Assembly (NCBI RefSeq): GCF_000018105.1
Contig: NC_009925.1
Span: 2,610,001-2,642,000, forward strand
From: Acaryochloris marina MBIC11017
Lineage (GTDB): Bacteria > Cyanobacteriota > Cyanobacteriia > Thermosynechococcales > Thermosynechococcaceae
Direction: 5' to 3'
Length of the DNA stretch: 32,000 nt
Positions 9,169 through 24,838 of this stretch are shown piece by piece. The translations under genes were made by a program, and so were the position numbers. Each line of letters opens with the position of its first letter. Position 1 is the stretch's first letter. The notes under the pieces were generated by a model. That model searched no databases, was not told the origin of the DNA, and saw only the letters and a program-made list of their open reading frames with translations.

Positions 9169-9774
9169 ATGAATCACTCAGCTCCACAACCCAATCCTGA
9201 AGAGCTTTCCAACTGGGCAGCCTTATCGGCGCTGGGTGCGTTGGCTGGGGACGATCAGCTAGCCGAGTCCTTTTCAGCGGATGAACTGGATGCAGAAATT
9301 GCTGGGTTTGAAGATGCGGTATCTGCGATCGCATACAGCGTTCCCGCCATGCCCATATCTCCCAAGCTGAAGGAGCGGCTGTTTCAACGGATTGACGCCA
9401 CCACTCTCCAATCTGCTGAGCTATACGCGCTCATCTCTCAGCCTATTGAGGAGTTAATTGCCCTATCCAATCAATTGCAATGGCAAGACATAGAAGGGCC
9501 AGGTGAGTTTAAGCATGCGGTCTACCAAACCAACACCCTACATCGAGAGCTGGCCTTTTTTGTCAAGTCTGACCAAGGGGGGCTTTTCCCCAAGCATCAT
9601 CACGCCGCTGGGGAAGAAATTTTGGTCTTGGCTGGCGATTTGGTGGTGGATGACCAGGTGTATCAGAAGGGAGATCGCATTGTGTCTGCGGCAGATACCA
9701 TTCATCAACCTGCCACCCGCAACGGTTGTCTCCTATTCTGCGTTGCCTCTATGGACAATCAGTTTGTGTCTTAG
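9169..9774 (+). CDS. Putative cytoplasmic anti-sigma factor with a C-terminal cupin (ChrR-like) domain
   Basis: It lies directly downstream of the ECF sigma gene. The N-terminus is anti-sigma-like (WAALSALGALAGDD...) and the C-terminus is cupin-like (HHHAAGEEILVLAGDLVVDDQVYQKGDRIV...IHQP). I saw no TM segment and no HxxxCxxC zinc motif. Confidence 0.6.
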   Translation: MNHSAPQPNPEELSNWAALSALGALAGDDQLAESFSADELDAEIAGFEDAVSAIAYSVPAMPISPKLKERLFQRIDATTLQSAELYALISQPIEELIALSNQLQWQDIEGPGEFKHAVYQTNTLHRELAFFVKSDQGGLFPKHHHAAGEEILVLAGDLVVDDQVYQKGDRIVSAADTIHQPATRNGCLLFCVASMDNQFVS

Positions 9775-10017: not shown

Positions 10018-10098
10018 AACGGTGGAGTTGTGCGGCGGCAAGCGACTGCTAAGTTTTATCAATCCCTTTATCCCGTCCGCACCAACGAAGTGTTAGCT
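10014..10098 (-). other. attC-like recombination site 2 (end of the R-M cassette)
   Basis: On the + strand the site reads CCATAACGG-N9-GCGGCGG ... CCGTCCGC-N9-GTGTTAGCT. Stem pairs are 10027-10030/10083-10086, 10031-10035/10077-10081 and 10036-10038/10073-10075, with C10082 and T10076 unpaired. It has the same skeleton and spacing as attC-1. Confidence 0.6.
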
Positions 10099-11270
10099 GT
10101 TTCATTTGACCGGGGAGATATAGCTTGGACTAAAGAGTTAGCTATTCGATAACCCAACTCTACAGGTACAGCATTACCGATCTGCCTCATTGCTTCTGTC
10201 CATGAGCCAGAAATCCTATAATTGTCTGGAAAGGTCTGGATTCTTTTAGCTTCAAACGTAGTGTAATAGCGTATTCGACCATCTTGATATCTAATCATAT
10301 TTTCTCCACCAGGAACTCCATGATCTCCTGCCTTAAGGGCTTTAGAGGGCATATCAATATAGCTACCAGTATGTCCAGGATAAGATCGCGCACCTTCTCT
10401 CAAGACATGTTCATTATCAAAACTACCTTGGATGTCAGGAGCTGGAAGTTTTCCAATTTGATCCCGAACTGTCTTCCAGGGTTCTAGAGAAGGAGAAAAT
10501 AAACTAGGCTGTTGCATGAGCTGCTTAGCTCGTTGTTGTGTTCTTTGGTCTAGATGTTCAATTTCTAAGGGATTGACCGCATTTCTTATCCAGTAAGCGC
10601 CAGTAATAAATTGTGACCACAATAGAGAATCTAAAGAATGAGATTCTTCAGGAAAAGACCACTCGATATTTAAATCTTCTCTAATTCCAACAATAAAAAC
10701 TCTTTCTCGGCGCTGAGGAACCCCATAATTTGCAGCGTCTACTAGCCGAAAAACAACATTATATTTGATGCCATCATACTTCCCTGAAGTGTGAATCTTC
10801 TCAAGCCTTGCAAGATGATCTTCCCAACGTTCTGAAGCTTGAAGAGAAAGGTCAGGATATCTCAACCTCAAGAGAATGTACTCAAAATAGCTACTGAAGG
10901 ACTTACGTAGCAACCCTTTGACATTCTCAAAGACAAAAGCTTTAGGTGTACAAACACTTATCGCTTTACAGGCGTAAGGGAACATATCTCGTTTATCCAT
11001 ATTCCCTTTATGTTTTCCTCCCATCGAAAATGGTTGACATGGAGGTCCACCAGAAACTATGTCAACATGACCAAATTGTGAAAATTTAAATGTACGAATA
11101 TCTACATTATGAACAAGCTGAGCACTGTAGTTATTAGCTAAAGTGATGCAAGCATCCTTGTTCCATTCAACAAAAGCCGTGTGCTGAACTCCAGCCTTTT
11201 CTAGACCTTTTGCCAGACCTCCAGCTCCTGTGAACAACTCTAAACAGGATAATTTAGGCATCTTCTTCAT
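10068..11270 (-). CDS. DNA (cytosine-5)-methyltransferase
   Basis: Motif I FTGAGGL, motif IV GGPPCQPFS, motif VI ENVKGL, motif VIII QRRERVFIVG, motif X GNAVP. It overlaps the upstream nuclease gene by 17 nt. Confidence 0.93.
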   Translation of the reverse strand: MKKMPKLSCLELFTGAGGLAKGLEKAGVQHTAFVEWNKDACITLANNYSAQLVHNVDIRTFKFSQFGHVDIVSGGPPCQPFSMGGKHKGNMDKRDMFPYACKAISVCTPKAFVFENVKGLLRKSFSSYFEYILLRLRYPDLSLQASERWEDHLARLEKIHTSGKYDGIKYNVVFRLVDAANYGVPQRRERVFIVGIREDLNIEWSFPEESHSLDSLLWSQFITGAYWIRNAVNPLEIEHLDQRTQQRAKQLMQQPSLFSPSLEPWKTVRDQIGKLPAPDIQGSFDNEHVLREGARSYPGHTGSYIDMPSKALKAGDHGVPGGENMIRYQDGRIRYYTTFEAKRIQTFPDNYRISGSWTEAMRQIGNAVPVELGYRIANSLVQAISPRSNETANTSLVRTG

Positions 11271-11943
11271 TCAATTCATTCATAAAAGCTTCAATGCTTT
11301 GCAAGAGATCTGCTTTATTAGCGTGAACTCCCTGACATTTTTCCGCCCAAAGGCGGCCTGGGTGGCAAACATCCCAGTCAGATTTTGCTTGCTCATATCG
11401 CCCTTTTCCAGGATCGTGGTTACCAAAACCATCAATTAAAGTATTCCAAAGTGGTTGATATTTCCTGATAAGAGCTGCTTCAACAGTTCCAATTAAGTCG
11501 CTTTCTTTACCCTCAAGAATCATGAATCTACAGAAAAAGTCGGAGCTGTTTACACCTTCTCCGATCTCTATACTGCGACTATGTTCTCTTATTCGATTAT
11601 TTAGCTCATAGCTTTTTGTATCTGAAGATGATGACTGTCTGGCTTGTCTCCAGCCTTTGGGGACTGCTTTTCCAACATAGATAGGAATATGAAATGCAGT
11701 CCTATTAACTGAATTAAATCTTGAATAAATTCCAGACTTAGCGATGCAATACAAGGCATAAACACCTGTGCCGTGAAAACGTGTGGGCACGGGAATTGAA
11801 TGCACAGGTGTACCGTTAAAAAAACGTATTGTGTCCTTGATTATTTCATCAAAATCCGGAGAAACGTAGACATGTTTAGAGCGGTCAAAACTATTCATAT
11901 GACTAAATTTAGACCGATAACCGTAAGCAAAGCAGCGCCACAT
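11254..11943 (-). CDS. GIY-YIG type II restriction endonuclease, Eco29kI-like
   Basis: GVYALY...IPIYVGKA (the GIY and YIG elements), NNRIREH (Arg/His), TVEAAL (Glu) and LWNTLIDGFGNHDPGKGR (Asn). The gene is translationally coupled to the C5-methyltransferase gene. An alternative start is the ATG at 11898. Confidence 0.72.
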   Translation of the reverse strand: MWRCFAYGYRSKFSHMNSFDRSKHVYVSPDFDEIIKDTIRFFNGTPVHSIPVPTRFHGTGVYALYCIAKSGIYSRFNSVNRTAFHIPIYVGKAVPKGWRQARQSSSSDTKSYELNNRIREHSRSIEIGEGVNSSDFFCRFMILEGKESDLIGTVEAALIRKYQPLWNTLIDGFGNHDPGKGRYEQAKSDWDVCHPGRLWAEKCQGVHANKADLLQSIEAFMNELNEEDA

Positions 11944-13382: not shown

Positions 13383-13789
13383 ATGTCTCCTGGTGTCCAG
13401 AAACAGCCTCCACGCCTGCTAGATCAAGTTCGTCAATCAGCCAGACTTAGGCATTTTAGTCACAAGACTGAAAAGTCATACATCTACTACATTCGATCAT
13501 TCATCCTGTTCCATCAGAAACGCCACCCTCGTGAAATGGGAGTTGACGAGATTCACGCCTATCTCTCTCACCTCGCCATCGATAAACAGGTAGCAGCCTC
13601 AACTCAAAATGTGGCATTGAGCGTTTTACTGTTTCTCTATCAGCACGTTCTGTCAATTTATTTACCTTACATTGACAAGATTGAGCGCGCTCGCAAGCCA
13701 GCACGGTTACCCACGGTCTTTTCACGCTCTGAAATCGCGGAGATTCTAGATAATATGAGTAGGGGCCACTTGTTGACGGCCAGCTTCTT
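13383..13789 (+). pseudogene. intI: Integron-integrase-type tyrosine recombinase gene; only the N-terminal ~135 codons remain
   Basis: LLDQVRQSARLRHFSHKTEKSYIYYIRSFILFHQKRHPREMGVDEIHAYLSHLAIDKQVAASTQNVALSVLLFLYQHVL...ARLPTVFSRSEIAEIL matches the conserved IntI N-terminal core-binding domain. Similarity ends at ...LLTASFL, and the catalytic domain is absent. Confidence 0.75.
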
Positions 13790-15152
13790 AAGCTTTGGCG
13801 TTCTCCTGTGTTGCATCCCTAGCTGTTGAGAGACGTTCTTGCGCTTCAGCCACCCATTGATTCACTTCTGGTTGCGTCTCCAGAACAATCGGATTTTGCT
13901 GGGCTTTAGTCAGACACTTCTTCCAATCGGGTAGTGCTTTCTGCTGCTCATTCTTCGCTTCAGACACTTTAGCCAGCATACAAAATGGATCAGGGGCATT
14001 CGGCTCCATCTGGGCTGCCTGCTGAAGATGGTGTTCAGCCTTCGAGAAAAACTTCTGCTTTAACCGTGCCCACCCTAAATTCTTAAGAAGGCTATATTTC
14101 AGTTGTTTACCCTCGGGTGTCTCTTTATTACCTTGTTGTTCTAGCTTCCGCAACCCTGCCTGCAATAGCGGAGCCGCTTTGCCATACTCTTCATCGACAA
14201 TATCCAGCTCAGCTAAATTGTTATGGGCCTGCAGCCAAATCATCAGATCATCGCAATGGTCAGCATTAGCAGCATTACAGTTCACAAGGTCTTTCTGAGT
14301 CACCACAAGCTGATACTGTGCCTTCGCTTTTTCAAGCTGCTGCAAATCTTCATGGACCAAGGCCAAATTGAAATGCGCCTTAGGAAAATCTTGCTTCAGG
14401 GCAATCGCCCGCTTAAAGTCTTTGCGAGCACTGTCTAACTTGCCATTCTGATAATGAGCTTCGCCATTCTGGTTAGCCGTTTCCGCAAATCCAGGCAATG
14501 CAGAATGGATACCAGCCAGAGATAAAACTAGGATCAGGGCGAAGGTAAAACTTGCCTCCTGCCAATAGCGCTTATTGATCCGTATCCGACAGAGAAGACG
14601 CTCATAGGCTTGTCGGCCAGCTTGAGTTAAGGCCCCTCCCCCCGCGAGCAAGGCCAATAGGCTTTGGCCGGAGATCATTAAGGTTGAACCCAAGTCGATA
14701 CCCCCCGAGAATAGGCGAGTAGCAGTATCAGTAATTAAACTGGCCGAGATGGTCAAAATAACCAGGGTTCCGGCATTAAACAGCCAATCATATTCGTTCC
14801 ACCAATGCCTAGGTTCTGGAGCCCTGAGAAACCACCACCAAGAAGTGTGGGGCGGATTAACCAACTGCTGCCAAGCCTCTAAATCAAGGTGAGTCGCAAT
14901 CAAGACTTCATATTTTTTGAGATAGCAATCTAAATCCGCTAGCCGCAATAACTGCTGAGAACTCAACAAGGATCGCTCCGTCATCAAGGCCTGGATTTGA
15001 TCACGACAGGTCAAAAGATTGAGAATTTCTTCTGGCTTAAATTTGCCCTTGGGGCGATCAAAGATTTGCAAGCTAACACGATACTGATTCAGCAGCTTGT
15101 TGAACTCAGGTGACTGAGCAGGCTCATCAACCGTCAAAGAATGGGTATGCAT
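13788..15152 (-). CDS. Membrane-anchored TPR-repeat protein
   Basis: An N-terminal soluble region is followed by about 3-4 TM helices (LVILTISASLI..., LMISGQSLLALLAGGGAL, FTFALILVLSLAGI) and then C-terminal TPR repeats. I chose the ATG at 15152; the ORF-track start at 15197 is TTG. Confidence 0.7.
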   Translation of the reverse strand: MHTHSLTVDEPAQSPEFNKLLNQYRVSLQIFDRPKGKFKPEEILNLLTCRDQIQALMTERSLLSSQQLLRLADLDCYLKKYEVLIATHLDLEAWQQLVNPPHTSWWWFLRAPEPRHWWNEYDWLFNAGTLVILTISASLITDTATRLFSGGIDLGSTLMISGQSLLALLAGGGALTQAGRQAYERLLCRIRINKRYWQEASFTFALILVLSLAGIHSALPGFAETANQNGEAHYQNGKLDSARKDFKRAIALKQDFPKAHFNLALVHEDLQQLEKAKAQYQLVVTQKDLVNCNAANADHCDDLMIWLQAHNNLAELDIVDEEYGKAAPLLQAGLRKLEQQGNKETPEGKQLKYSLLKNLGWARLKQKFFSKAEHHLQQAAQMEPNAPDPFCMLAKVSEAKNEQQKALPDWKKCLTKAQQNPIVLETQPEVNQWVAEAQERLSTARDATQENAKA

Positions 15153-15774
15153 CTTTACAAGCAGAATTGAATAACAGCAGTCAAGATTCAGGCGCAACCA
15201 ATTTATCTAGCAAAAGCTAAAAATTATGCCATCAGCTCTTGAGAGAAAGATTATTCTTATCATAAAAACAAATGAAAATATCTAAAGTGAGTCTGGTCAC
15301 CATCACTAATAGTTCTAAATAATTTATTAAAAACTATCAGACTAGTCACTAAAAGTTATGGGGTTTATTAGTGCTAGCTCTATTTTTTCAGTTAGGCTCA
15401 GCCGGTCAAAAAAGTAAAAATTCTTCGATTTCACCCATCAATTTATTGATATACAGATCTTTTAGCCTTCAGTGTATCTCAAATAGGAATAGAGATAGTT
15501 ACGGTGAGCGATCATCCTAAACATACTTTATTAGCTCTCGGCAAGAAAGACTTCAAGAGACATTATTGGATTTCTAGACAGTGAGCAATCTTAAGATTCT
15601 ATAAGAAAGGGAAGACTAAAAAATCTGAGTACAAAATAAACAAAATTAAAGAATGGCGTAAAAATGGCCATTTGAAATGATGTTAGATATTAGAAGCTTG
15701 AATGAATTAGACAGCTCAGTTTTAAAATAATCATCTTTTTTATTTCCCATTTGTGAAACCTGGAGATCTAGAAA

Positions 15775-16119
15775 ATGCCAACTGTAGATTCACTTCCCAT
15801 CGAACAAAAAGTTGCTTTCCGCCGAAAGTCCGTTCAAGTTATGCGAGATCTGTTCGATCTCTCTGCATTGATGGTTTCAGTAGAAGACTATCAAAAAGCA
15901 AAAGATAATTTCTTTTCCCCTGCTCAAAAAATCTGGTTTATGTTCGGTGGTACTATCAAGCGCTTGGAGCCAGGCTTAGGCAACCAAATCGAATCCCACA
16001 TCAATGCCATCAACCCTCTGTTGGATCAAGCTGCTCCCAATCGTGCTTTGACCGCTAGCCTAGATGAGCTGAAGCGATTGATGGCATCAGCTGTAACGAT
16101 TAGCGATGCCAAACTTTAG
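15775..16119 (+). CDS. Hypothetical 114-aa protein upstream of the lipoxygenase fusion gene
   Basis: A GGAGA lies about 9 nt upstream of the ATG. The ORF has ordinary composition inside a very AT-rich intergenic region. I recognise no family. Confidence 0.45.
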   Translation: MPTVDSLPIEQKVAFRRKSVQVMRDLFDLSALMVSVEDYQKAKDNFFSPAQKIWFMFGGTIKRLEPGLGNQIESHINAINPLLDQAAPNRALTASLDELKRLMASAVTISDAKL

Positions 16120-16311: not shown

Positions 16312-18729
16312 ATGGATAGTCGTGATCCGCGCACTGAACATGTTGATGATGAATTTAAAAAACTAATTTCAAATATTGCCCGAGCCTTTGGACGTACCGC
16401 ACAAATTAAAGGACGGCGAGCGACCCACTCCTACGGCACCGTCGCCAAAGGGGTTTTGAAAGTTCTAGATACTCTAGATATCCCTCAACATCAAATATTT
16501 AGCGCAGGCAAACAATACCCGGTCTTACTACGCCACGCCAATATCAAAGGGTTCCGCGATGACGCCATCCTCGATGGGCGCGGTGCGACAGTCAGGGTCC
16601 TAGCGGGCGATGCCCAAGCGCCGCTATCGGATTTAAACCTAGATGAAGGCATTGTCGATATCCTGATGAGCACTGGACGCTCCTTTATTTTGGCAGAGGC
16701 GCTTTCCTTTGCTCGCTGGGCAGCAGGGCCCATGAAATCGCGAGCCGCCATGCTGCAGGAATTTCCCAAGATTGCACCCATCTTCCATGAAATTATTCGC
16801 GACCCAGACTCCTACACTCAACTCCACTACTATTCTGAGACAACCTACAGTTTTACTAGCCTCAATCAGCAGTCATTTTTTCTCCGATATCGCTTGGTTA
16901 ACCGCCAAAACCCATCTGCAGACACGGGATGGCTGAAGCCTGAAGAGGTGAAACTACCTTTAGATTACTTACCTCGCGTCGCCAGCGATACCCGTCCCGA
17001 GACCTATCTACAGGACGATTTTCGCCAACAGGTACGCAGTACAGGGGTCAGCTATCTACTGCAGATCCAACTGCAGCCCGTTTCTGATGATGCTGCAATG
17101 AATGAAACAGCCAAAGACTGCACGATTCCCTGGGAAGAAGAAGACCATCCGTTCCATGATGTTGCGGTGTTGGACTTGGGTAGCATTTTGCCCGATGAAC
17201 TCGCGGAAGCCTTGGAATTTAATCCCTATAATGCACCACCAGAATTGAGCTTAATTTTGGCGAAGACAGCGCGTGAAACAGCTTCTGTCAACCATCTTCG
17301 CTCTGTTGTCTATCAGATCTCTGCCAATATGCGTAAATATCAAACTCCTAGCTCCAGCCTAGTGGATTGGGGCAGCGGTCACCAGCCGTCCCTCCCTGAG
17401 CAATATCCTTATGGCACAGGCAAAACCCCGAGCTTCGATAATACAAAGCCCTTGCCCGCGAGAGTAAAGCCAAAACCACGCTACTGGGCCAACTTTGGCC
17501 TCAAACTGATTCCCAATCAACAGCTAGATCCTGATTTGCCTGAATTAGGTATTACAGGGGCCTTAGATCTGATGGGTACCAGTGTGGTTTCCTATATGCC
17601 GCCGAACCTAACCCGCACCCGATTGGATAAGTTTAGCGATGATTTCTTTGTAGAGCGCCGCCTGAATGGATTTAATCCAGGCAAACTCAACCGAGTGACG
17701 GGGCATGCCTGGCAATATCAGGTCTGCTACGATTGCAGCAAACACCAGGTGGAACCTGCGGGCATCCTTCCGACAAAAATTACAGCCCGGTTTAATTTCT
17801 GTGGACAATACTTGCATCCCCATTCCATTCAATTTACTCTGAACGGCCAAACAGAGACTCAGCAACCCGGTGATGAAAATTGGGAATGGAGTAAGCGCCT
17901 GTTCCGCTGCGCAGAATTCGTCTTCCAGGAGGCTCAATCTCATCTAGGACGAACCCACATGAACCTGGATCAGTACGCTATGGCGTATTACCGGAATGTG
18001 GTGAATAATCCCATTCGTTTACTGTTAGAACCCCATCTGGAAGGTCTCTTAAGTATCAATAAGCTAGGAGCCAACCTAATTAGTGGACCGACAGGCTTTA
18101 TTCCGGAAGCCTCCTCTCTAACACCAGAGAGCGTAGATGACGTTCTCAAAGATGAAATCAGTCACCTGAGTTATCATTGGACGCCCCATCGTCAAACCCT
18201 GCCCGATCGGGTACTGAACAACCATTATGATCCGGCTGCGATCGCAATGTGGAATCTCTTGACGCAGTATGTCAGGGAGTTCTTCGAAGACCATCAGGCA
18301 GGTATGGAGGAATACTGGTCTGAGATCCAAGCCATGTCCCACGATCTGGTCACTCACTCGATTCTCAAACCAGAATTAGGGACACTCGCCGTTCAAAACA
18401 ATGCTGACTTACAGCAGCTTTGTGTATACGTTATTTTCCTTAGCTCTTTCTTCCATTCATGGGTTAATAACAAGCAGTACGAAGACGGTGGCGATGTCAG
18501 CTATAGCACGATTGGCCTATGGGATACCCGCCATCCAAAGTATGATCCTCTACGCGTCGCTGAACGAGAAGCCAAACAGGTCACTCTCCTCTGGACACTT
18601 TCCCATGTCCGCTACAACCCCATTATGGATGTGGGACCAACAGCCCTTAAAAACTTACTTTGGCAACAGCGGCAGCACATTGAGCCAGGCATTCCCCTAG
18701 CCAATCTTATGATGAGCACCAATATCTAA
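16312..18729 (+). CDS. Fusion protein: catalase-related haem domain (allene-oxide-synthase-like) plus a PLAT-less lipoxygenase
   Basis: The N-terminal half carries RRATHSYGTVAKG, VLLRHANIKGFRDDAILDGRGATVRV and RSVVYQISANMR, which look like the catalase distal His, beta-barrel and proximal Tyr segments. The C-terminal half carries HLGRTH (H-x4-H), HSWVN (H-x3-N) and a C-terminal ...MSTNI ending in Ile, the lipoxygenase iron ligand. Confidence 0.85.
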   Translation: MDSRDPRTEHVDDEFKKLISNIARAFGRTAQIKGRRATHSYGTVAKGVLKVLDTLDIPQHQIFSAGKQYPVLLRHANIKGFRDDAILDGRGATVRVLAGDAQAPLSDLNLDEGIVDILMSTGRSFILAEALSFARWAAGPMKSRAAMLQEFPKIAPIFHEIIRDPDSYTQLHYYSETTYSFTSLNQQSFFLRYRLVNRQNPSADTGWLKPEEVKLPLDYLPRVASDTRPETYLQDDFRQQVRSTGVSYLLQIQLQPVSDDAAMNETAKDCTIPWEEEDHPFHDVAVLDLGSILPDELAEALEFNPYNAPPELSLILAKTARETASVNHLRSVVYQISANMRKYQTPSSSLVDWGSGHQPSLPEQYPYGTGKTPSFDNTKPLPARVKPKPRYWANFGLKLIPNQQLDPDLPELGITGALDLMGTSVVSYMPPNLTRTRLDKFSDDFFVERRLNGFNPGKLNRVTGHAWQYQVCYDCSKHQVEPAGILPTKITARFNFCGQYLHPHSIQFTLNGQTETQQPGDENWEWSKRLFRCAEFVFQEAQSHLGRTHMNLDQYAMAYYRNVVNNPIRLLLEPHLEGLLSINKLGANLISGPTGFIPEASSLTPESVDDVLKDEISHLSYHWTPHRQTLPDRVLNNHYDPAAIAMWNLLTQYVREFFEDHQAGMEEYWSEIQAMSHDLVTHSILKPELGTLAVQNNADLQQLCVYVIFLSSFFHSWVNNKQYEDGGDVSYSTIGLWDTRHPKYDPLRVAEREAKQVTLLWTLSHVRYNPIMDVGPTALKNLLWQQRQHIEPGIPLANLMMSTNI

Positions 18730-18821: not shown

Positions 18822-18937
18822 GTTATCTAGTCTTAACCTAAATTACCCAACGGGTTTAGATCGTCCACTGCAGCCAGCAGTTCAGGCATAGGGAAGCGTT
18901 AATCTGACTTGTCACGCTAAGTCTCCTGGGTTGTTAT

Positions 18938-20329
18938 CCCTCTTTTATCACTTTAGACAGATAAAAAATAGACTATTCTCAGTTTCTATTTTTCTAATGA
19001 GTGATGTCAGCTTCAAGAAGTCCAGAACCAACCATTGGCTTTGTTGATGAGTACTGCCAACTATTTGCAGAGTTATTTCCCCAAGTCCGCAGTTATGAAG
19101 CCTTCAAGCATCTCCATCTGGGGATGATTAGTGATATCAAACGTAAATCATTGCCCGCCATTGCAAGAGCAGTGGGCTTGGAGAACCATCAAAGCCTGCA
19201 TCATTTTCTGAGTGAATCACCTTGGGTAGCGTCACATTTGTCTGACAAGAGATTGGACATCATCTTGAAAATACTGGATGGGCGCAGGTTAATTCTATTG
19301 ATCGATGAGACGGGCGATTGCAAAAAAGGCAAGAGTACCGACTATGTGAAACGGCAGTATATCGGCAATGTGGGCAAGAAAGAGAATGGCATCGTCGCAG
19401 TCACTGCCTACGGGCTGTTTCAAGGGATGATTTTGCCTTTGTCCTTTGAAGTGTACAAACCCCGAGAACGTCTTAAAGAGGAGGATGAGTATCTCAGCAA
19501 ACCCCAAATTGCTGCTGGAATGATCCGACAGTTGCAAGGGATGGGCTTTTGCTTTGAGCTCGTCCTGGCTGACAGCTTGTATGGGGAAGCTCAAACAAAC
19601 TTTGTGAATGTCTTAGAGGAGTTAAAGCTGCCCTATATCCTAGCGATTCGTAGCAATCATGCGGTGTGGTTACCCGCAGAACAAGCAGTCTTTGCCGAAC
19701 CGTGGCAGTCATTTGAACGAACCTTCAGCAATGGCACCACTGAAACTCGTTACAGGCAAGAGATCATTTATGGCCAGCGACACCACCAGAAGCGCTATTG
19801 GCTATTAACCACGGACCCCCAAACGCTACCAGAGAACTCAACCTCTTATGTCATGGCAGCGGCACCCGAGATCAAGCTGGATGAAATTGGGGATTGCTAT
19901 GGCTTCAGAACTTGGATTGAGTATGGTCTCAAACAGTCTAAAGATACCTTGGGTTGGGCTGATTTTCGCATGACGCACTACGAACAAATTGAAAAGTGGT
20001 GGGAGATAGTGATGAGCGCTTTCTTGATGGTGAGTTTGTTCGCTGATGTCTTCAATGACTCTTGTCCAGTGGCACATCAACACTTTGCGCAGCATCCTTG
20101 GTGGGATAACCAAAACGGGTGGAAGAATCTGCTCAATAATGTGCGCTTGATCATTCAACCGTTAATCAGTTGGAATCTTCTAAAGCGCTGGTTAGAAGTC
20201 TTTCCCAGCCGTGCTTTGAAAAAGGGGTTTGAGCAACTCACATCAAAGATGGAGGCATTTTGCTGTCCACTGGTGAGGAAATTGCTCAAGCATCCTGATT
20301 TTCTCTCTGTCTAAAGTGATAAAAGAGGG
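18938..20329 (+). mobile_element. IS701-family insertion sequence, copy A (about 1392 bp)
   Basis: The terminal inverted repeats are CCCTCTTTTATCACTTTAGACAG (18938-18960) and CTGTCTAAAGTGATAAAAGAGGG (20307-20329). TTAT lies directly outside both ends. Confidence 0.85.
19001..20314 (+). CDS. IS701-family DDE transposase (copy A)
   Basis: 437 aa. The candidate DDE residues are in LILLIDETGDCKKG, ELVLADSLYGE and RTWIEYGLKQSK. The protein is identical to the one at 21483-22796. Confidence 0.85.
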   Translation: MMSASRSPEPTIGFVDEYCQLFAELFPQVRSYEAFKHLHLGMISDIKRKSLPAIARAVGLENHQSLHHFLSESPWVASHLSDKRLDIILKILDGRRLILLIDETGDCKKGKSTDYVKRQYIGNVGKKENGIVAVTAYGLFQGMILPLSFEVYKPRERLKEEDEYLSKPQIAAGMIRQLQGMGFCFELVLADSLYGEAQTNFVNVLEELKLPYILAIRSNHAVWLPAEQAVFAEPWQSFERTFSNGTTETRYRQEIIYGQRHHQKRYWLLTTDPQTLPENSTSYVMAAAPEIKLDEIGDCYGFRTWIEYGLKQSKDTLGWADFRMTHYEQIEKWWEIVMSAFLMVSLFADVFNDSCPVAHQHFAQHPWWDNQNGWKNLLNNVRLIIQPLISWNLLKRWLEVFPSRALKKGFEQLTSKMEAFCCPLVRKLLKHPDFLSV

Positions 20330-20415
20330 TTATACTGCGTACGACTTGCGGCTTAACATTGTAGTGGAGAGATTTGGCAGACTGGGAATATCCCTCAACC
20401 GACTCCCCTACTTGC

Positions 20416-21460
20416 ATGATTAAAATTGATTTCACCGCAGAGGAAATCCAACACCTCAATTACGAACGCTATCATCACCCTCACCCACGGGTGCAGCGAC
20501 GGATGGAAGTGCTCTACTTGAAAAGTCAGGGTCTTCCCCATGCCCAGATTTGTCAGCTTTGTCAGATTAGTCGTCCGACCTTAGCTAAAACCCTTCGTCT
20601 GTATCAACAAGGCGGAATTGAAGGGTTGAAAACCCTGGAATACAAAGGTCAATCCAGTTCACTCAACGCTCATAGCGATAGTGTGAGAGCCTATTTTGAG
20701 CAACACCCGCCCCGCACCAGTGCAGAAGCCCAAGCAGTCATTGAACAATTGACAGGTATTAAGCGTTCTCCAACCCAGATTCAAAGCCTTCCTCAAACGC
20801 ATTGGTTGTCGCTCTCGAAAAGTGGGGTATGTGCCGGGAAAGTCGAGTCTGCCCGAGAAAATTGAGGAGCAAGAGCAGTTTCGACAAACTCGCCTTGAAC
20901 CCTTATTAGAGGAAGCTCAACGCCAAGAGCGTCTTGTCTTTTTTGTGGATGCTGCTCATTTTGTTCACCGGGCTTATCTGGGGTTTCTCTGGTGCCTTCG
21001 TCGGATCTTCATCCCTTCTCCTTCTGGCCGTCAACGATTCAATGTTCTGGGTGCACTCAACGCTGTCACCAGTATCACCAACCACACCTACATCAACTCT
21101 CATAGCATGTGTCTGTTGCTAGCCAAGCTGGCACTACTCGACCCAGTCATACCCATCAGCGTCATTTTAGACAATGCCCGATATCAAAAATGCCAGCTGG
21201 TGACTGACTTTGCTGAGATCGTCGATATTGAGTTAGTCTATTTGCCCTCCTATTCACCCCATTTGAATTTGATTGAGCGGCTTTGGCGCTTTGTGCGCAA
21301 GGAATGTCTCTACTCGAAGTATTATTCGGATTTTCACTCTTTCAAAGGGGCCATTCAACAGTGCATTGACCAATGCAATACAGAGCATAAGGCGAAACTA
21401 ACCAGCCTGCTCTCACTCAAGTTTCAGTCTTTCCAGAAAGTTAATCTCTTAACCGTCTAG
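20416..21460 (+). pseudogene. IS630-family transposase, split over two frames (20416-20865 and 20822-21460)
   Basis: The N-terminal HTH is LKSQGLPHAQICQLCQISRPTLAKTLRLYQQGG. The catalytic part carries FFVDAAH, VILDNARYQK and PSYSPHLNLIERLW (D, D, E). The reading frame has to shift by +1 near 20776-20785 to give ...FKAFLKRIGCRSRKVGYVPGK. Confidence 0.75.
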
Positions 21461-21467
21461 AGTATAA

Positions 21468-22859
21468 CCCTCTTTTATCACTTTAGACAGAGAGAAAATC
21501 AGGATGCTTGAGCAATTTCCTCACCAGTGGACAGCAAAATGCCTCCATCTTTGATGTGAGTTGCTCAAACCCCTTTTTCAAAGCACGGCTGGGAAAGACT
21601 TCTAACCAGCGCTTTAGAAGATTCCAACTGATTAACGGTTGAATGATCAAGCGCACATTATTGAGCAGATTCTTCCACCCGTTTTGGTTATCCCACCAAG
21701 GATGCTGCGCAAAGTGTTGATGTGCCACTGGACAAGAGTCATTGAAGACATCAGCGAACAAACTCACCATCAAGAAAGCGCTCATCACTATCTCCCACCA
21801 CTTTTCAATTTGTTCGTAGTGCGTCATGCGAAAATCAGCCCAACCCAAGGTATCTTTAGACTGTTTGAGACCATACTCAATCCAAGTTCTGAAGCCATAG
21901 CAATCCCCAATTTCATCCAGCTTGATCTCGGGTGCCGCTGCCATGACATAAGAGGTTGAGTTCTCTGGTAGCGTTTGGGGGTCCGTGGTTAATAGCCAAT
22001 AGCGCTTCTGGTGGTGTCGCTGGCCATAAATGATCTCTTGCCTGTAACGAGTTTCAGTGGTGCCATTGCTGAAGGTTCGTTCAAATGACTGCCACGGTTC
22101 GGCAAAGACTGCTTGTTCTGCGGGTAACCACACCGCATGATTGCTACGAATCGCTAGGATATAGGGCAGCTTTAACTCCTCTAAGACATTCACAAAGTTT
22201 GTTTGAGCTTCCCCATACAAGCTGTCAGCCAGGACGAGCTCAAAGCAAAAGCCCATCCCTTGCAACTGTCGGATCATTCCAGCAGCAATTTGGGGTTTGC
22301 TGAGATACTCATCCTCCTCTTTAAGACGTTCTCGGGGTTTGTACACTTCAAAGGACAAAGGCAAAATCATCCCTTGAAACAGCCCGTAGGCAGTGACTGC
22401 GACGATGCCATTCTCTTTCTTGCCCACATTGCCGATATACTGCCGTTTCACATAGTCGGTACTCTTGCCTTTTTTGCAATCGCCCGTCTCATCGATCAAT
22501 AGAATTAACCTGCGCCCATCCAGTATTTTCAAGATGATGTCCAATCTCTTGTCAGACAAATGTGACGCTACCCAAGGTGATTCACTCAGAAAATGATGCA
22601 GGCTTTGATGGTTCTCCAAGCCCACTGCTCTTGCAATGGCGGGCAATGATTTACGTTTGATATCACTAATCATCCCCAGATGGAGATGCTTGAAGGCTTC
22701 ATAACTGCGGACTTGGGGAAATAACTCTGCAAATAGTTGGCAGTACTCATCAACAAAGCCAATGGTTGGTTCTGGACTTCTTGAAGCTGACATCACTCAT
22801 TAGAAAAATAGAAACTGAGAATAGTCTATTTTTTATCTGTCTAAAGTGATAAAAGAGGG
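21468..22859 (-). mobile_element. IS701-family insertion sequence, copy B (inverted relative to copy A)
   Basis: The terminal repeats are the same as in copy A (21468-21490 and 22837-22859). ATAA, the reverse complement of TTAT, lies directly outside both ends. Every internal ORF in every frame is identical to copy A. Confidence 0.85.
21483..22796 (-). CDS. IS701-family DDE transposase (copy B)
   Basis: The 437-aa product is identical to copy A. Confidence 0.85.
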   Translation of the reverse strand: MMSASRSPEPTIGFVDEYCQLFAELFPQVRSYEAFKHLHLGMISDIKRKSLPAIARAVGLENHQSLHHFLSESPWVASHLSDKRLDIILKILDGRRLILLIDETGDCKKGKSTDYVKRQYIGNVGKKENGIVAVTAYGLFQGMILPLSFEVYKPRERLKEEDEYLSKPQIAAGMIRQLQGMGFCFELVLADSLYGEAQTNFVNVLEELKLPYILAIRSNHAVWLPAEQAVFAEPWQSFERTFSNGTTETRYRQEIIYGQRHHQKRYWLLTTDPQTLPENSTSYVMAAAPEIKLDEIGDCYGFRTWIEYGLKQSKDTLGWADFRMTHYEQIEKWWEIVMSAFLMVSLFADVFNDSCPVAHQHFAQHPWWDNQNGWKNLLNNVRLIIQPLISWNLLKRWLEVFPSRALKKGFEQLTSKMEAFCCPLVRKLLKHPDFLSV

Positions 22860-23122
22860 ATAACTGCCATCCTTACTATCAGGAGATTTAGCGTGACAAG
22901 TTAAATATTAAGTCGAGAATTTTTACGTCTTTCTTATTGCAACTGATATCATCCAAGTTGTATTTATAAATACAGAAAACCACTTATAGATAGATTTCAT
23001 CAAGAGACATCTATATCATTTTTATTCATAGATAATACTATATTTCCCAGCGCTAACTCTCTATCTAAATTGCAACAAAAAGATTTTAGATTGAAGCTTT
23101 AGGGCTAGGAAATATCTAAATT

Positions 23123-24838
23123 TTAGATATTGATCCGCGATCTTAAATCTCGCAAATCATAACCAAGTGTTTTAAAGTTGTCACGCTCTCTCTTCAAGAT
23201 CGAAATAAACTCTCTAGGAATATCGTTTTCTTCATTCCTGGTTAAATATCCATGCTTGACATCGACCAAGATATTGACAATAAATAACTGAAATGCAGCA
23301 TCTTCAACAGAATAATCAATTGCTAGACGAGCATAATCAATTTCTCCACCATAGTTGGCTTGATTATCATTGCGCCAATCATGCCAAATCGTTGCATGAT
23401 AAATCGCATAAGCACAGGCTTGTTTGAGGTTCTCGATATCCTGTTCACCAGGATGAGTCATCGTTTCTGTGATTGGACTAATTGCCTTTTGATTCGCAGG
23501 TCTTTCGACGCTGACTTCATTATTATCAACATACTGTTCTCCATCTGTGATAGATGGAGGGACAAATGGAACGCTATGGTTTTCTAAATCTTTGGAGAAG
23601 TAATAAATTTCTTTCCAGTCTAATTTGATTTTGTCTTCATAAAGCGAAAAGAATTTATCAACGTATTCATTCAGAATATTCCAATATAGATTCTGAATTT
23701 TCGAATAGGAATGCTGGCCAGTAGAATTCACCTCACTTCTGGGCGACCAGTTCCTCCAATTACATTGGCCCAGATCATCTCTCATCACATCGATTAAAGA
23801 AGCTGAGTTGAGGGGGGAAAGTGCAAGGACTCCTTGATCTCCAAAGATAATATCTTTCCCAAACGTATTAATCGCAGAAACACTCTTTAAGTGGGGATGA
23901 AGAAGTTTAAGGATGGGACTTTTTTGAATATTCCGATAGAGGGCAATAGCATACTGCCCCACATTCAAATGCCCTCTGCCTAAATGTCCCTTAACCTGTC
24001 CATCAATAAACTCAGCAATGCGGAAATACAGCTTCGCTTGCTCCCACTTTGCCCCGTCTCCAGGCTCAGCCGAACCATCATCGACAAATTCAGGAGGGAA
24101 AGACGCAATTTTCCTTAGTTTCCATTCAATTTTTTGGGGAATCAACTGATCATTCCCATCTTTCACCATTGTTAAATGCACACTAGGTGCTTGATGAATT
24201 TCATCCCATCTATATTGATCTAAGTTGTAGCGAACATGAAATTGTCCATTGCTATCTTGGGTCATTAGCGCTGGTGCAAAACCATTTAAAGTTGCATCAA
24301 TAAAGAACTTATCATCTCTAGATGTACCGTTCTCGATGGTGAGGTTTTCTGGAAAAACAGTTTGCGCTGCTTCAATCGAACCCTGTTGTCCAGCATTCCG
24401 TCTTTTCAGCCCCCATGGGACTGATTTAAGCAGTATTTTACGAGTCTGTGATGCGACAAAATTCTGGGGAGAGGCAAAGATTCCTGCTCCTTCCGAACGT
24501 ATCAGTGGTACGGCATAATCGGGATCATATTCCCAGTCAGCGATCAAAATAGTGCCGAAATCATAGTCTCCTTCTACATTCCTAGGACCATCTTCCTCAT
24601 AAATCACATGAGGCTGACTTTGATAGTCCAATCGGATGACCTTAACGGTTAGATCGGGGGTATCACCAGCATCATCTGTATCATATTCAATGTTGAACTC
24701 GCCATTGTCGTTCGTTCTCCCTGAACCGACTAGGTCATCTAGCCCAAAATCTCGGTCCCAAATCTCAATTAATGTATCTCTAAAGGGCGATTGATCAAAT
24801 TGTCGAGAAATTTTGCCGGAAACCGTTTGCTTAACCAT
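23123..24838 (-). CDS. Lipoxygenase with a short N-terminal beta-sandwich-like domain
   Basis: HLGRGH (H-x4-H), HDWRN (H-x3-N) and a C-terminal ...RSRINI ending in Ile. It is a paralogue of the C-terminal half of the 805-aa fusion (GHLGRGHLNVGQYAIALYRNI versus SHLGRTHMNLDQYAMAYYRNV). Confidence 0.85.
   Translation of the reverse strand: MVKQTVSGKISRQFDQSPFRDTLIEIWDRDFGLDDLVGSGRTNDNGEFNIEYDTDDAGDTPDLTVKVIRLDYQSQPHVIYEEDGPRNVEGDYDFGTILIADWEYDPDYAVPLIRSEGAGIFASPQNFVASQTRKILLKSVPWGLKRRNAGQQGSIEAAQTVFPENLTIENGTSRDDKFFIDATLNGFAPALMTQDSNGQFHVRYNLDQYRWDEIHQAPSVHLTMVKDGNDQLIPQKIEWKLRKIASFPPEFVDDGSAEPGDGAKWEQAKLYFRIAEFIDGQVKGHLGRGHLNVGQYAIALYRNIQKSPILKLLHPHLKSVSAINTFGKDIIFGDQGVLALSPLNSASLIDVMRDDLGQCNWRNWSPRSEVNSTGQHSYSKIQNLYWNILNEYVDKFFSLYEDKIKLDWKEIYYFSKDLENHSVPFVPPSITDGEQYVDNNEVSVERPANQKAISPITETMTHPGEQDIENLKQACAYAIYHATIWHDWRNDNQANYGGEIDYARLAIDYSVEDAAFQLFIVNILVDVKHGYLTRNEENDIPREFISILKRERDNFKTLGYDLRDLRSRINI

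What the first reader, a model, noticed from the sequence alone, without database searches (positions are those of the whole stretch)
16312..18729. Catalase-related haem domain fused to a mini-lipoxygenase (AOS-LOX-type oxylipin synthase)
Residues ~1-370 show catalase-fold landmarks. The distal pair is Thr-His (ATHSYG) rather than the Val-His of true catalases, which is the hallmark of catalase-related allene oxide synthases. A candidate proximal Tyr lies in RSVVYQISANMR. Residues ~375-805 form a lipoxygenase without a PLAT domain that retains all iron ligands (H-x4-H, H-x3-N, C-terminal Ile). Such natural fusions are known from the coral Plexaura homomalla, and a similar haem-LOX fusion or pairing has been described in a few cyanobacteria (Anabaena PCC 7120, Acaryochloris). 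Their products differ: allene oxides, epoxides, bicyclobutane fatty acids. The chemistry of this enzyme therefore cannot be inferred and could be new.
Basis: partly seen in the sequence, partly recalled or inferred. Interest (0 to 1): 0.6.

Follow-up and report, generated by a model that had tools for sequence, protein, structure and literature searches.

The report
Known Acaryochloris catalase-like AOS–lipoxygenase fusion
This gene really does encode a haem (catalase-like) allene oxide synthase fused to a small lipoxygenase, but its product is identical to the Acaryochloris marina MBIC11017 protein that is almost certainly the fusion enzyme already characterised in 2009–2010, so it is correct but not new.

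Summary
Window 16312..18729 (+) is an intact 805-aa ORF. Its N-terminal ~345 residues match coral catalase-related allene oxide synthase (PDB 1u5u, E 5e-34) and keep Thr38-His39 and Arg330/Tyr334. Its C-terminal ~430 residues are a PLAT-less mini-lipoxygenase that keeps all five iron ligands and has Gly586 at the R/S-stereocontrol site.

The claim that its chemistry is unknown and could be new is not supported. The protein is residue-for-residue identical to ABW27596.1 / WP_012163053.1 / UniProt B0C6P0 of Acaryochloris marina MBIC11017. Papers held in the library state that the A. marina catalase-like AOS–LOX fusion was cloned and characterised (Gao et al. 2009, 2010). The LOX domain makes 12R-hydroperoxides from omega-3 C18 acids and 9R-HPODE from linoleate. 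The haem domain is cited as an allene oxide synthase.

It differs from coral cAOS in having Ser120 where the distal Asn sits (21 of 28 family members) and no PLAT domain. It is only 31% identical to the Anabaena PCC 7120 fusion.

Extras found:
- a conserved orphan four-helix-bundle ORF just upstream (AM1_2588);
- a second, 571-aa LOX gene (AM1_2594) convergent downstream;
- a nested IS insertion separating the two LOX genes.

Verdict: real, correctly read, already known. Low interest.

The parts
16312..18729 (+). Fusion gene (805 aa plus stop). Product is identical to A. marina MBIC11017 ABW27596.1 / WP_012163053.1 / UniProt B0C6P0. Locus tag AM1_2589 is inferred from the neighbouring tags.
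   Evidence: ORF. Exact-sequence look-up. Neighbouring tags AM1_2588 and AM1_2594.
16312..17349 (+). Catalase-related allene-oxide-synthase (cAOS) haem domain, residues 1-346.
   Evidence: phmmer vs 1u5u E 4.8e-34 over residues 30-345. Foldseek vs 1u5u TM(target) 0.76. Pfam PF00199 24.4 bits, just under the gathering score of 25.
16423..16428 (+). Distal Thr38-His39 codons (motif RRATHSYG), aligned to cAOS Thr66-His67.
   Evidence: Alignment. Invariant in 28 of 28 family members. Codons checked.
16669..16671 (+). Ser120, at the position of the distal Asn of catalases and coral cAOS (Asn137).
   Evidence: cAOS VMNTG aligns with ILMSTG. Family counts are 21 Ser, 6 Asn, 1 Gly.
17299..17313 (+). 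Proximal haem-ligand motif Arg330-x3-Tyr334 (LRSVVY), aligned to cAOS Arg349/Tyr353.
   Evidence: alignment. Both residues invariant in 28 of 28.
17350..17433 (+). Inter-domain linker, residues ~347-374. A further low-confidence stretch runs to about residue 415.
   Evidence: pLDDT below 50 at residues 345-353 and 396-415. Variable and gapped in the family alignment.
17434..18726 (+). Mini-lipoxygenase domain (residues ~375-805), without a PLAT/beta-barrel domain.
   Evidence: PF00305 E 1.4e-9, above the gathering score. 5ek8 E 3.9e-39. Stand-alone 450-473-aa mini-LOX homologues cover residues ~345/375-805.
17941..17958 (+). Iron ligands His544 and His549 (H-x4-H, SHLGRTH).
   Evidence: Invariant in 28 of 28. 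Codons checked.
18067..18069 (+). Gly586 at the Coffa-Brash R/S stereocontrol position (INKLGANL). It aligns with the Gly of coral 8R-LOX (IDTIGRKE); I identify that Gly as Gly428 from my own knowledge, as no tool output numbers it.
   Evidence: 3dy5 domain 2 alignment. Gly in 28 of 28 family members. The Nostoc PCC 7120 protein has Ala here.
18454..18468 (+). Iron ligands His715 and Asn719 (H-x3-N, FHSWVN).
   Evidence: Invariant in 28 of 28. Codons checked.
18724..18726 (+). C-terminal Ile805, whose carboxylate is the fifth iron ligand in lipoxygenases.
   Evidence: Invariant in 28 of 28. Followed directly by the stop codon.
15775..16119 (+). AM1_2588: a conserved 114-aa orphan ORF 192 bp upstream on the same strand. 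Predicted four-helix bundle and probable operon partner, function unknown.
   Evidence: ABW27595.1. Present immediately upstream of the fusion in all 7 loci (L002-L008) whose fusion is at least 71% identical and whose upstream DNA is available, and in no other locus. Only 7 clusters in 5.8 billion proteins, none with Pfam. AF2 pLDDT 91 with four helices, and no specific PDB match.
18902..22906 (.). Nested IS insertion in the spacer between the two LOX genes. An IS630-like element (27-nt terminal inverted repeats; HTH plus DDE_3 transposase in two ORFs at 20374-21460) is itself hit by two 100%-identical 1404-bp DDE_5 IS copies (18933-20336 and 21461-22864) in inverted orientation, one just inside each end.
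   Evidence: Repeats. Pfam. Absent from the Acaryochloris IP29b locus L002, where the two LOX genes lie about 580-700 bp apart.
23123..24838 (-). AM1_2594: a second lipoxygenase gene (571 aa), convergent with the fusion. Full-length homologue of the Cyanothece PCC 8801 9R-LOX. Ligands His285/His290/His486/Asn490/Ile571, with Gly327 at the stereocontrol site.
   Evidence: PF00305 above the gathering score. 5ek8 E 2.8e-88 over residues 13-570. ABW27601.1 / B0C6P5. Motif positions.

Best explanation
The ORF is the catalase-related allene oxide synthase-lipoxygenase (cAOS-LOX) fusion enzyme of Acaryochloris marina MBIC11017, a bifunctional oxylipin synthase that has already been characterised.

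Step 1. The C-terminal mini-LOX holds a non-haem iron through His544, His549, His715, Asn719 and the Ile805 carboxylate. It abstracts a bis-allylic hydrogen and inserts O2 with R stereochemistry, which fits Gly586. Reported products are 12R-hydroperoxides (n-7) from omega-3 C18 acids such as alpha-linolenate, and 9R-HPODE from linoleate.

Step 2. The N-terminal haem domain has tyrosinate ligation by Tyr334, supported by Arg330, and distal His39 tuned by Thr38. It cleaves the hydroperoxide O-O bond and dehydrates the fatty acid hydroperoxide to an unstable allene oxide.

What is shown here: the domain architecture, fold, ligand set and stereocontrol residue, and exact sequence identity to the A. 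marina protein. What is taken from the literature: the products. What is inferred: that this is the very gene used in those papers, and that the two domains channel substrate in vivo.
For: - Intact ORF and motifs.
- N-terminal half matches coral cAOS: E 4.8e-34, Thr-His and Arg/Tyr in register, TM 0.76 to 1u5u.
- C-terminal half matches 5ek8 (E 3.9e-39) and PF00305 above threshold.
- All catalytic residues are invariant in 28 family members.
- Exact identity to ABW27596.1/B0C6P0 on the 6,503,724-bp A. marina MBIC11017 chromosome.
[quoted passage not shown] - No other catalase-LOX fusion or catalase-related paralogue attributed to Acaryochloris appeared in two database searches.
- From my own knowledge, not from a tool: MBIC11017 was the only sequenced A. 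marina genome in 2009. The abstract of Gao et al. 2009 describes cloning a LOX-catalase fusion gene from A. marina that forms 12R,13-epoxy allene oxides, and mainly an epoxyalcohol from 9R-HPODE.
Against: - The two primary papers are not held, so I could not read the accession they used. No held paper cites ABW27596, B0C6P0 or AM1_2589.
- The homologue searches depend on shared words and missed 30%-identical relatives: neither the Nostoc 7120 fusion nor AM1_2594 appeared. A divergent paralogue elsewhere in the genome is therefore not formally excluded.
- No A. marina locus was returned by the genome scan.
- The one A. marina plasmid accession I tried, NC_009926 (recalled from memory), is not in the plasmid collection. 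therefore may not cover this strain's plasmids.
- The distal Asn is replaced by Ser120, a departure from coral cAOS.
- Pfam Catalase is marginally below its threshold.
Confidence: 0.88

Rival explanations
1. Same architecture, but this is a paralogue or a different gene from the one characterised by Gao et al. Its regiospecificity and haem-domain chemistry would then remain untested and could differ, as they do between the coral, Anabaena and Capnella enzymes.
For: Primary papers are unavailable and no accession link was found. The homologue search can miss relatives around 30% identity (the Nostoc 7120 fusion and AM1_2594 are absent). A. marina plasmids may not have been covered. The genome does hold a second LOX only 4.4 kb away.
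Against: The second LOX has no catalase-related domain, so it cannot be 'the fusion protein'. The only Acaryochloris catalase-LOX fusion cluster found is this one. Gly586 and the close match to the 9R/12R-type Cyanothece LOX fit the reported R-specific 9R/12R products.
Confidence: 0.07
2. The haem domain is a genuine H2O2-dismutating catalase, fused to a lipoxygenase for self-protection against peroxide, and not a fatty-acid-hydroperoxide-converting enzyme.
For: A weak Pfam Catalase hit. True catalases appear as distant hits (KatA, 23% identity).
Against: The distal pair is Thr-His, not Val-His, and is invariant in the family. The title of Mashhadi et al. [quoted passage not shown] The best match by far is cAOS and not any catalase. 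The distal Asn needed for efficient catalase turnover is Ser. The domain is ~345 residues, the size of cAOS. The literature lists the A. marina enzyme as an AOS.
Confidence: 0.02
3. The haem domain mainly performs a non-AOS hydroperoxide transformation in vivo: epoxyalcohol synthase, leukotriene-A-type epoxide or bicyclobutane formation as in Anabaena, or hydroperoxide lyase as in Capnella cHPL.
For: Catalase-related hemoproteins with the same catalytic residues give different products (cHPL vs cAOS: abstract of PMC5617202; Anabaena fusion). From my own recollection of the Gao 2009 abstract, 9R-HPODE is converted mainly to an epoxyalcohol. Ser120 replaces the distal Asn.
Against: Held reviews classify the A. 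marina enzyme as an AOS. The protein is only 31% identical to the Anabaena fusion, which also aligns Gly and His at the positions of Arg330 and Tyr334. The title of Gao et al. 2008, cited, states that Asn137 mutations change the rate but not the chemistry.
Confidence: 0.03

Closest known systems
Acaryochloris marina catalase-related AOS-LOX fusion protein (Gao, Boeglin, Zheng, Schneider, Brash, J Biol Chem 2009;284:22087; Gao, Boeglin, Brash, Biochim Biophys Acta 2010;1801:58)
   Same: Same species and, by inference, the same protein. The window protein is 100% identical to ABW27596.1/B0C6P0 of strain MBIC11017. The architecture (catalase-like N-terminus, LOX C-terminus) and an R-type LOX (Gly586) match the descriptions.
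   Different: Nothing detectable. The only gap is that I could not read the accession used in the primary papers.
Plexaura homomalla allene oxide synthase-8R-lipoxygenase fusion (PDB 3dy5; cAOS domain 1u5u; 8R-LOX 2fnq)
   Same: Same domain order (haem N-terminal, LOX C-terminal). Same catalase fold (TM 0.76). Thr-His distal pair and Arg-x3-Tyr proximal motif in register. Gly at the R-stereocontrol site. Top fold hit for the whole model.
   Different: The coral protein is 1066 aa and has a PLAT/C2-like domain in its LOX, which is absent here. The distal Asn137 is Ser120 here. The LOX halves are only distantly related (E 4e-9). The substrate is arachidonate (8R) in coral, against C18 omega-3 (12R) and linoleate (9R) here.
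Anabaena/Nostoc sp. PCC 7120 hemoprotein-mini-LOX fusion (WP_010994078.1, plasmid pCC7120gamma; Schneider et al. PNAS 2007)
   Same: Cyanobacterial, with the same two-domain order, a PLAT-less mini-LOX, a Thr-His distal pair and the same five iron ligands.
   Different: Only 31% identity over the full length. It aligns Gly and His at the positions of Arg330 and Tyr334. It keeps the distal Asn (VLNTG). It has Ala, not Gly, at the stereocontrol site. It is plasmid-borne. Its reported products differ: an allylic 9,10-epoxide giving diols and a bicyclobutane fatty acid (paper title).
Cyanothece sp. PCC 8801 9R-lipoxygenase (PDB 5ek8)
   Same: Closest solved structure to the LOX half (E 3.9e-39). 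Reported to share the 12R specificity on alpha-linolenate. It is also the closest structure to the neighbouring gene AM1_2594 (E 2.8e-88).
   Different: 5ek8 is a stand-alone 668-aa LOX with an N-terminal extension and no haem domain. The fusion's LOX aligns only with 5ek8 residues 224-668.
Split mini-LOX plus catalase-related gene pairs in other cyanobacteria (for example Spirulina sp. 06S082 L026, Okeania L033/L035, Dapis L031/L036, Calothrix L040/L041)
   Same: The same two activities are encoded side by side. The mini-LOX is 53-57% identical to the fusion's C-terminal half.
   Different: Two separate genes in the opposite order (LOX first, haem protein second). The haem proteins are only about 26-30% identical to this N-terminal half. 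To my knowledge they are uncharacterised.

Membership tests
Catalase-related fatty-acid-hydroperoxide-converting hemoproteins (cAOS type) | Catalase core fold (beta-barrel plus helical domain) of about 350-370 residues. | tested here: met
   phmmer vs 1u5u E 4.8e-34 over residues 30-345. AF2 model vs 1u5u: TM(target) 0.76, rmsd 3.4 A over 336 columns. Pfam PF00199 scores 24.4 bits against a cutoff of 25.
Catalase-related fatty-acid-hydroperoxide-converting hemoproteins (cAOS type) | Distal His preceded by Thr (Thr-His), in place of the Val-His of true catalases. | tested here: met
   Thr38-His39 align to cAOS Thr66-His67 and are invariant in 28 of 28 relatives. The hallmark status comes from the title of Mashhadi, Newcomer & Brash 2016, as cited.
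Catalase-related fatty-acid-hydroperoxide-converting hemoproteins (cAOS type) | Proximal Tyr haem ligand with Arg four residues upstream. | tested here: met
   Arg330/Tyr334 align to cAOS Arg349/Tyr353 and are invariant in 28 of 28.
Catalase-related fatty-acid-hydroperoxide-converting hemoproteins (cAOS type) | Distal Asn (cAOS Asn137, catalase Asn148). This residue is conserved, but reported not to be essential for the chemistry, so I do not treat it as family-defining. | tested here: not met
   Ser120 occupies this position (21 Ser, 6 Asn, 1 Gly in the family). The title of Gao et al. [quoted passage not shown]
Catalase-related fatty-acid-hydroperoxide-converting hemoproteins (cAOS type) | Binds haem and converts a fatty acid hydroperoxide to an allene oxide. 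| not testable with these tools
   Reported for the A. marina enzyme in the literature. The primary paper is not held.
Lipoxygenase (PF00305), cyanobacterial mini-LOX subtype | Match to the LOX family profile above the curated threshold. | tested here: met
   PF00305 E 1.4e-9, 37.5 bits against a cutoff of 23.6. 5ek8 E 3.9e-39.
Lipoxygenase (PF00305), cyanobacterial mini-LOX subtype | Five iron ligands: His-x4-His, His-x3-Asn and the C-terminal Ile carboxylate. | tested here: met
   His544, His549, His715, Asn719 and Ile805 followed by the stop codon. All are invariant in 28 of 28.
Lipoxygenase (PF00305), cyanobacterial mini-LOX subtype | No N-terminal PLAT/beta-barrel domain; catalytic domain of about 430-460 residues. 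| tested here: met
   No PLAT hit even at E up to 1. Stand-alone homologues of 450-473 aa cover residues ~345-805. The alignment to 5ek8 starts at 5ek8 residue 224.
Lipoxygenase (PF00305), cyanobacterial mini-LOX subtype | Gly at the Coffa-Brash position, as expected for R-stereospecific LOX. | tested here: met
   Gly586 aligns with the Gly in IDTIGRKE of coral 8R-LOX, which I identify as Gly428 from my own knowledge. Gly in 28 of 28. That Gly means R-specificity is established knowledge (Coffa & Brash 2004), recalled and not tested here.
Lipoxygenase (PF00305), cyanobacterial mini-LOX subtype | Dioxygenase activity and regio/stereospecificity. | not testable with these tools
   Literature: 12R-HpOTrE from ALA and 9R-HpODE from LA.
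Natural AOS-LOX fusion proteins | A single polypeptide with the haem domain N-terminal and the LOX C-terminal. | tested here: met
   One uninterrupted ORF. The domain order is the same as 3dy5, which is the top fold and sequence hit. About 43 full-length clusters with the same architecture were found, the named ones cyanobacterial.
Identity with the published A. marina enzyme | Same sequence or accession as used by Gao et al. 2009/2010. | tested here: inconclusive
   Exact identity to the MBIC11017 protein ABW27596.1, and no other fusion was found for the genus. However, the papers are not held, no accession was found in the held literature, and the whole genome could not be scanned.

The most novel reading that the evidence does not exclude
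The characterised enzyme may be only one part of a conserved, unstudied oxylipin locus. AM1_2588, an orphan four-helix-bundle protein that accompanies the fusion gene in every close relative with upstream sequence, could be a functional partner. For example, it might capture or cyclise the short-lived allene oxide, or regulate or localise the enzyme. The adjacent second LOX (AM1_2594) could feed or diversify the hydroperoxide pool. That would give this cyanobacterial AOS pathway a defined end product and physiological role, which to my knowledge is still unknown.
Probability: 0.15. Interest if true: 0.45.

Novelty: already known. Interest (0 to 1): 0.12.

Why it matters
As a discovery it matters little. 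The fusion, its 12R/9R-LOX activity and its allene oxide synthase activity were published in 2009-2010, and the protein is in GenBank, RefSeq and UniProt.

It does serve as a positive control for the first-stage reader, which recognised a two-domain haem-LOX enzyme and its catalytic residues from raw DNA.

Modest residual value lies in four places:
- The fused family is much wider than the two cyanobacterial examples usually cited: about 43 clusters at 55-97% identity, the named ones cyanobacterial. Split, reverse-order versions also exist.
- Ser replaces the distal Asn in most members.
- A conserved orphan partner ORF and a second LOX lie next to the gene.
- The physiological role of cyanobacterial allene oxides remains open.

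Tried and rejected
- I tried to read the primary papers: PMC2755933, PMC2787963, PMC5267355, PMC2141887, PMC4727423 and PMC4528142. None is held.
- I searched the library for ABW27596, B0C6P0, WP_012163053, AM1_2589 and a remembered YP number. No paper holds any of them.
- I tried to count fusion copies in A. marina with the species-representative genome scan. No A. marina locus was returned, although the window sequence fits both search patterns.
- tblastn of the plasmid collection found only the Nostoc PCC 7120 fusion plus rhizobial and enterobacterial catalase-like hits. The one A. marina plasmid accession I tried, NC_009926 (recalled from memory), is not in that collection, so this negative result may say nothing about the strain's plasmids.
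- NCBIfam gave no meaningful hit.
- I considered and rejected a true catalase (Thr-His, Ser120, best hit cAOS).
- I considered that the downstream 571-aa LOX might be the published enzyme. Rejected, because it has no catalase domain.
- I first mislabelled PDB 5ek8 as CspLOX2. I corrected this: 5ek8 is the 668-aa Cyanothece 9R-LOX, and CspLOX2 is 5med.
- For AM1_2588 I tried Pfam (no hit), a homologue search (7 orphan clusters), a profile-HMM search of all fetched loci (only the 7 close loci), and AF2 plus Foldseek (a generic four-helix bundle, best E 0.13). No function emerged.
- The promoter/terminator scan around the gene was at shuffle background.
- Rfam and tRNA scans of the window found nothing.
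- In some searches my minus-strand ORF references were offset by one codon (first Met dropped, stop included). This does not affect the domain hits. Exact coordinates were used for the look-up.
Full report
**1. Observation**

The ORF listing shows an ATG-initiated ORF at exactly 16312..18729 on the + strand, 805 aa.
- ATHSYG, with Thr38-His39 at 16423-16428.
- RSVVYQISANMR, with Arg330 and Tyr334 (17311-17313).
- SHLGRTH, with His544 and His549.
- FHSWVN, with His715 and Asn719.
- A C-terminal Ile805, followed directly by the stop codon.

**2. Domain assignment**

*Profile searches.* Pfam gives Lipoxygenase PF00305 at E 1.4e-9, which is 37.5 bits against a gathering score of 23.6. It gives Catalase PF00199 at E 1.9e-5, which is 24.4 bits and just under the gathering score of 25. 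No PLAT domain is found.

*Sequence comparison with solved structures.* This is much more decisive.
- Residues 30-345 match the coral Plexaura homomalla catalase-related allene oxide synthase (1u5u) at E 4.8e-34.
- Residues 425-804 match the Cyanothece PCC 8801 9R-lipoxygenase (5ek8) at E 3.9e-39.
- The full-length coral AOS-LOX (3dy5) is the top hit overall, at E 1.1e-44.
- Thr38-His39 sit on cAOS Thr66-His67, and Arg330/Tyr334 sit on Arg349/Tyr353.
- The cAOS distal Asn137 (VMNTG) aligns with Ser120 (ILMSTG).

*Structure prediction.* An AlphaFold2 model built on 28 family members has mean pLDDT 83.9. It shows two well-predicted domains and a poorly predicted linker at 345-353 and 396-415. 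Foldseek against the PDB returns 3dy5 (E 2e-33), 5ek8 (E 1e-22) and 1u5u (E 5e-21; TM 0.76 normalised on 1u5u; rmsd 3.4 A) as the best hits.

**3. Identity of the protein**

The homologue search finds a 97%-identical protein in Acaryochloris sp. CCMEE 5410. A more distant 790-aa group lies at 44%, and many stand-alone 450-473-aa mini-LOXs are 52-70% identical to the C-terminal half.

The exact-sequence look-up shows that the window protein itself is ABW27596.1 / BDM82332.1 / WP_012163053.1 / UniProt B0C6P0, on the 6,503,724-bp chromosome of Acaryochloris marina MBIC11017. The neighbouring ORFs are AM1_2588 (ABW27595.1) and AM1_2594 (ABW27601.1). By GenBank numbering, this places the fusion at AM1_2589.

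**4. What is already published**

Papers held in the library say the following.
[quoted passage not shown] - A. marina is listed among the catalase-type AOSs (PMC10813956).

The primary sources are Gao, Boeglin, Zheng, Schneider & Brash, J Biol Chem 2009;284:22087, and Gao, Boeglin & Brash, Biochim Biophys Acta 2010;1801:58. Neither is held, so I could not read the accession they used.

From my own recollection of the abstracts, which is not a tool result:
- The full-length protein and its domains were expressed in E. coli.
- 18:3 and 18:4 omega-3 are converted via 12R-hydroperoxides to 12R,13-epoxy allene oxides.
- 9R-HPODE gives mainly an epoxyalcohol whose hydroxyl comes from water, which was taken as evidence for a carbocation intermediate.

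The link from 'the A. marina fusion' to this ORF rests on four things:
- Exact identity to the MBIC11017 protein.
- The absence of any other Acaryochloris catalase-LOX fusion or catalase-related paralogue in two database searches.
- Gly586 at the R/S stereocontrol site, which fits the reported R products.
- My own knowledge that MBIC11017 was the only sequenced A. marina genome at the time.

I put this identification at about 0.9. The remaining doubt comes from the limits of the searches. They depend on shared words and missed relatives at about 30% identity. The genome scan returned no A. marina locus. The one A. marina plasmid accession I tried, NC_009926 (recalled from memory), is not in the plasmid collection.

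**5. Mechanism**

*Shown here.*
- The LOX half has the complete iron-ligand set (His544, His549, His715, Asn719, Ile805-COO-), invariant in 28 of 28 relatives.
- It has Gly at the Coffa-Brash position.
- The haem half has the Thr-His distal pair and the Arg-x3-Tyr proximal motif, also invariant.

*Inferred from established enzymology of cAOS and LOX.* The LOX abstracts a bis-allylic hydrogen and delivers O2 to give an R-hydroperoxide. The haem domain then cleaves the O-O bond. The resulting epoxy-allylic intermediate is oxidised and deprotonated to an allene oxide.

*Taken from the literature.* The actual products: 12R from omega-3 C18 acids, 9R from linoleate, and allene oxide.

Ser120 in place of the distal Asn is the main departure from coral cAOS. 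The family has 21 Ser, 6 Asn and 1 Gly at this position. The title of Gao et al. 2008 (Arch Biochem Biophys 477:285, cited) states that Asn137 mutations alter the rate but not the chemistry, so this substitution is compatible with AOS activity.

**6. Comparison with known systems**

- *Coral fusion.* Same domain order, fold and catalytic residues. The differences here are no PLAT domain, Ser instead of the distal Asn, different substrates and a much smaller protein (805 vs 1066 aa).
- *Anabaena/Nostoc PCC 7120 fusion* (WP_010994078.1 on pCC7120gamma). Identity is only 31%. The Nostoc protein keeps the distal Asn, has Ala at the stereocontrol site, and aligns Gly and His where this protein has Arg330 and Tyr334. 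That fits its different reported chemistry: an allylic epoxide giving diols and a bicyclobutane fatty acid (paper title).
- *Split versions.* The genome scan also shows that many cyanobacteria encode the two activities as separate adjacent genes in the opposite order. The mini-LOX comes first, then a haem protein about 26-30% identical to this N-terminal half (L026-L041 and L055).

**7. Surroundings**

*Upstream.* A 114-aa ORF (15775-16119, AM1_2588) lies 192 bp away on the same strand.
- It is conserved immediately upstream of the fusion in all seven loci whose fusion is at least 71% identical and whose upstream DNA is available (L002-L008).
- A profile HMM finds it nowhere else among the fetched loci.
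- It belongs to an orphan family of seven clusters with no Pfam domain.
- It models as a confident four-helix bundle (pLDDT 91) with only generic fold matches.

*Downstream.* A 4-kb nest of insertion sequences occupies the spacer.
- The outer element is IS630-like, with 27-nt terminal inverted repeats at 18902-18928 and 22880-22906.
- It carries two 100%-identical 1404-bp DDE_5 elements (18933-20336 and 21461-22864) in inverted orientation, one just inside each end.

*Second LOX.* Beyond the nest, convergent with the fusion, lies a second lipoxygenase gene (23123-24838, AM1_2594, 571 aa).
- It matches 5ek8 over its full length at E 2.8e-88 and has all iron ligands.
- In the IS-free Acaryochloris IP29b contig (L002), the two LOX genes are only about 580-700 bp apart. 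The IS nest is therefore a strain-specific insertion into an ancestral two-LOX locus.

**8. Verdict**

The enzyme is not new. It is, with high probability, the very protein whose LOX and AOS activities were published in 2009-2010.
- Novelty: already known.
- Interest: low (0.12).
- The only open angles are the uncharacterised partner ORF AM1_2588, the second LOX and the physiological role of the pathway.

Noticed in passing
window 23123-24838 (-): A second lipoxygenase gene (AM1_2594, ABW27601.1, 571 aa), convergent with the fusion gene. It is a full-length homologue of the Cyanothece PCC 8801 9R-LOX 5ek8 (E 2.8e-88), with all iron ligands, Gly327 at the stereocontrol site, and a weak transthyretin-like N-terminal hit. 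To my knowledge it is uncharacterised.
   Followed up: partly
window 15775-16119 (+): AM1_2588, a 114-aa orphan ORF conserved directly upstream of the fusion in all 7 close relatives with upstream sequence. Predicted four-helix bundle (pLDDT 91), with no Pfam match and no specific PDB fold match. Possible operon partner of unknown function.
   Followed up: yes
window 18902-22906: Nested insertion sequences. An IS630-like element (27-nt terminal inverted repeats; transposase split into two ORFs at 20374-21460) carries two 100%-identical 1404-bp DDE_5 IS copies in inverted orientation (18933-20336 and 21461-22864), each just inside one end. This suggests target-site-specific insertion into the IS630 terminal repeats. 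The nest is absent from the Acaryochloris IP29b locus L002.
   Followed up: partly
window 10068-11943 (-): A type II restriction-modification pair: a C-5 cytosine DNA methyltransferase (10068-11270) overlapping an Eco29kI-family restriction endonuclease (11254-11943, PF09517 E 4e-72). GC content here is about 40-42%, lower than the ~50-53% upstream of it (window 6001-9000), so the pair is possibly horizontally acquired.
   Followed up: no
window 13383-13829 (+): A 148-aa ORF with only the N-terminal SAM-like domain of a phage-type integrase (PF13495). It is probably a truncated integrase remnant, and it overlaps the 3' end of the TPR gene at 13788-15197 (-).
   Followed up: no
window 6968-9774: A DUF4331 protein (6968-8446, -) lies next to an ECF sigma factor (8400-8996, +) and a ChrR-like cupin anti-sigma protein (9169-9774, +). 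ChrR/RpoE pairs respond to singlet oxygen in other bacteria (my own knowledge). That would be thematically close to lipid-peroxide chemistry, but no link was tested.
   Followed up: no
window 25022-29107: A cluster of a D-Ala-D-Ala-ligase-like ATP-grasp protein (25022-26038, -), a radical SAM protein (26011-27192, -), a VanW-like protein (27258-28043, +) and an Ldh_2-family dehydrogenase (28040-29107, +), followed by an MFS transporter. This may be a small-molecule or peptide modification cluster. A MazF/PemK toxin lies at 30225-30593 (-), with a small overlapping ORF at 30574-30888 (-) immediately upstream of it on the same strand that is likely its antitoxin.
   Followed up: no
proteins P0085, P0136-P0139 (angiosperm genomes; not in the window): Flowering plants (Ipomoea, Aristolochia, Coffea, Salvia) encode proteins 33-36% identical to the haem domain over more than 90% of its length. 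They keep the distal His and the proximal Arg-x3-Tyr. They have Phe-His in place of Thr-His, and Lys at the distal-Asn position. This looks like an undescribed plant catalase-related subfamily.
   Followed up: partly
protein P0083 (metagenome; not in the window): A 498-aa protein that fuses an NTF2/SnoaL-like domain to the N-terminus of a catalase-related domain 55% identical to this one (ATHSFG). Enzymes with the NTF2-like fold include epoxide hydrolases and cyclases (my own knowledge), so this could be an alternative 'AOS plus downstream enzyme' fusion.
   Followed up: no
loci L026-L041 and L055: Many cyanobacteria (Spirulina, Okeania, Dapis, Calothrix, Anabaena cylindrica) carry the two activities as separate adjacent genes in the reverse order. 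The mini-LOX comes first, followed by a catalase-related gene only about 26-30% identical to this haem domain.
   Followed up: partly
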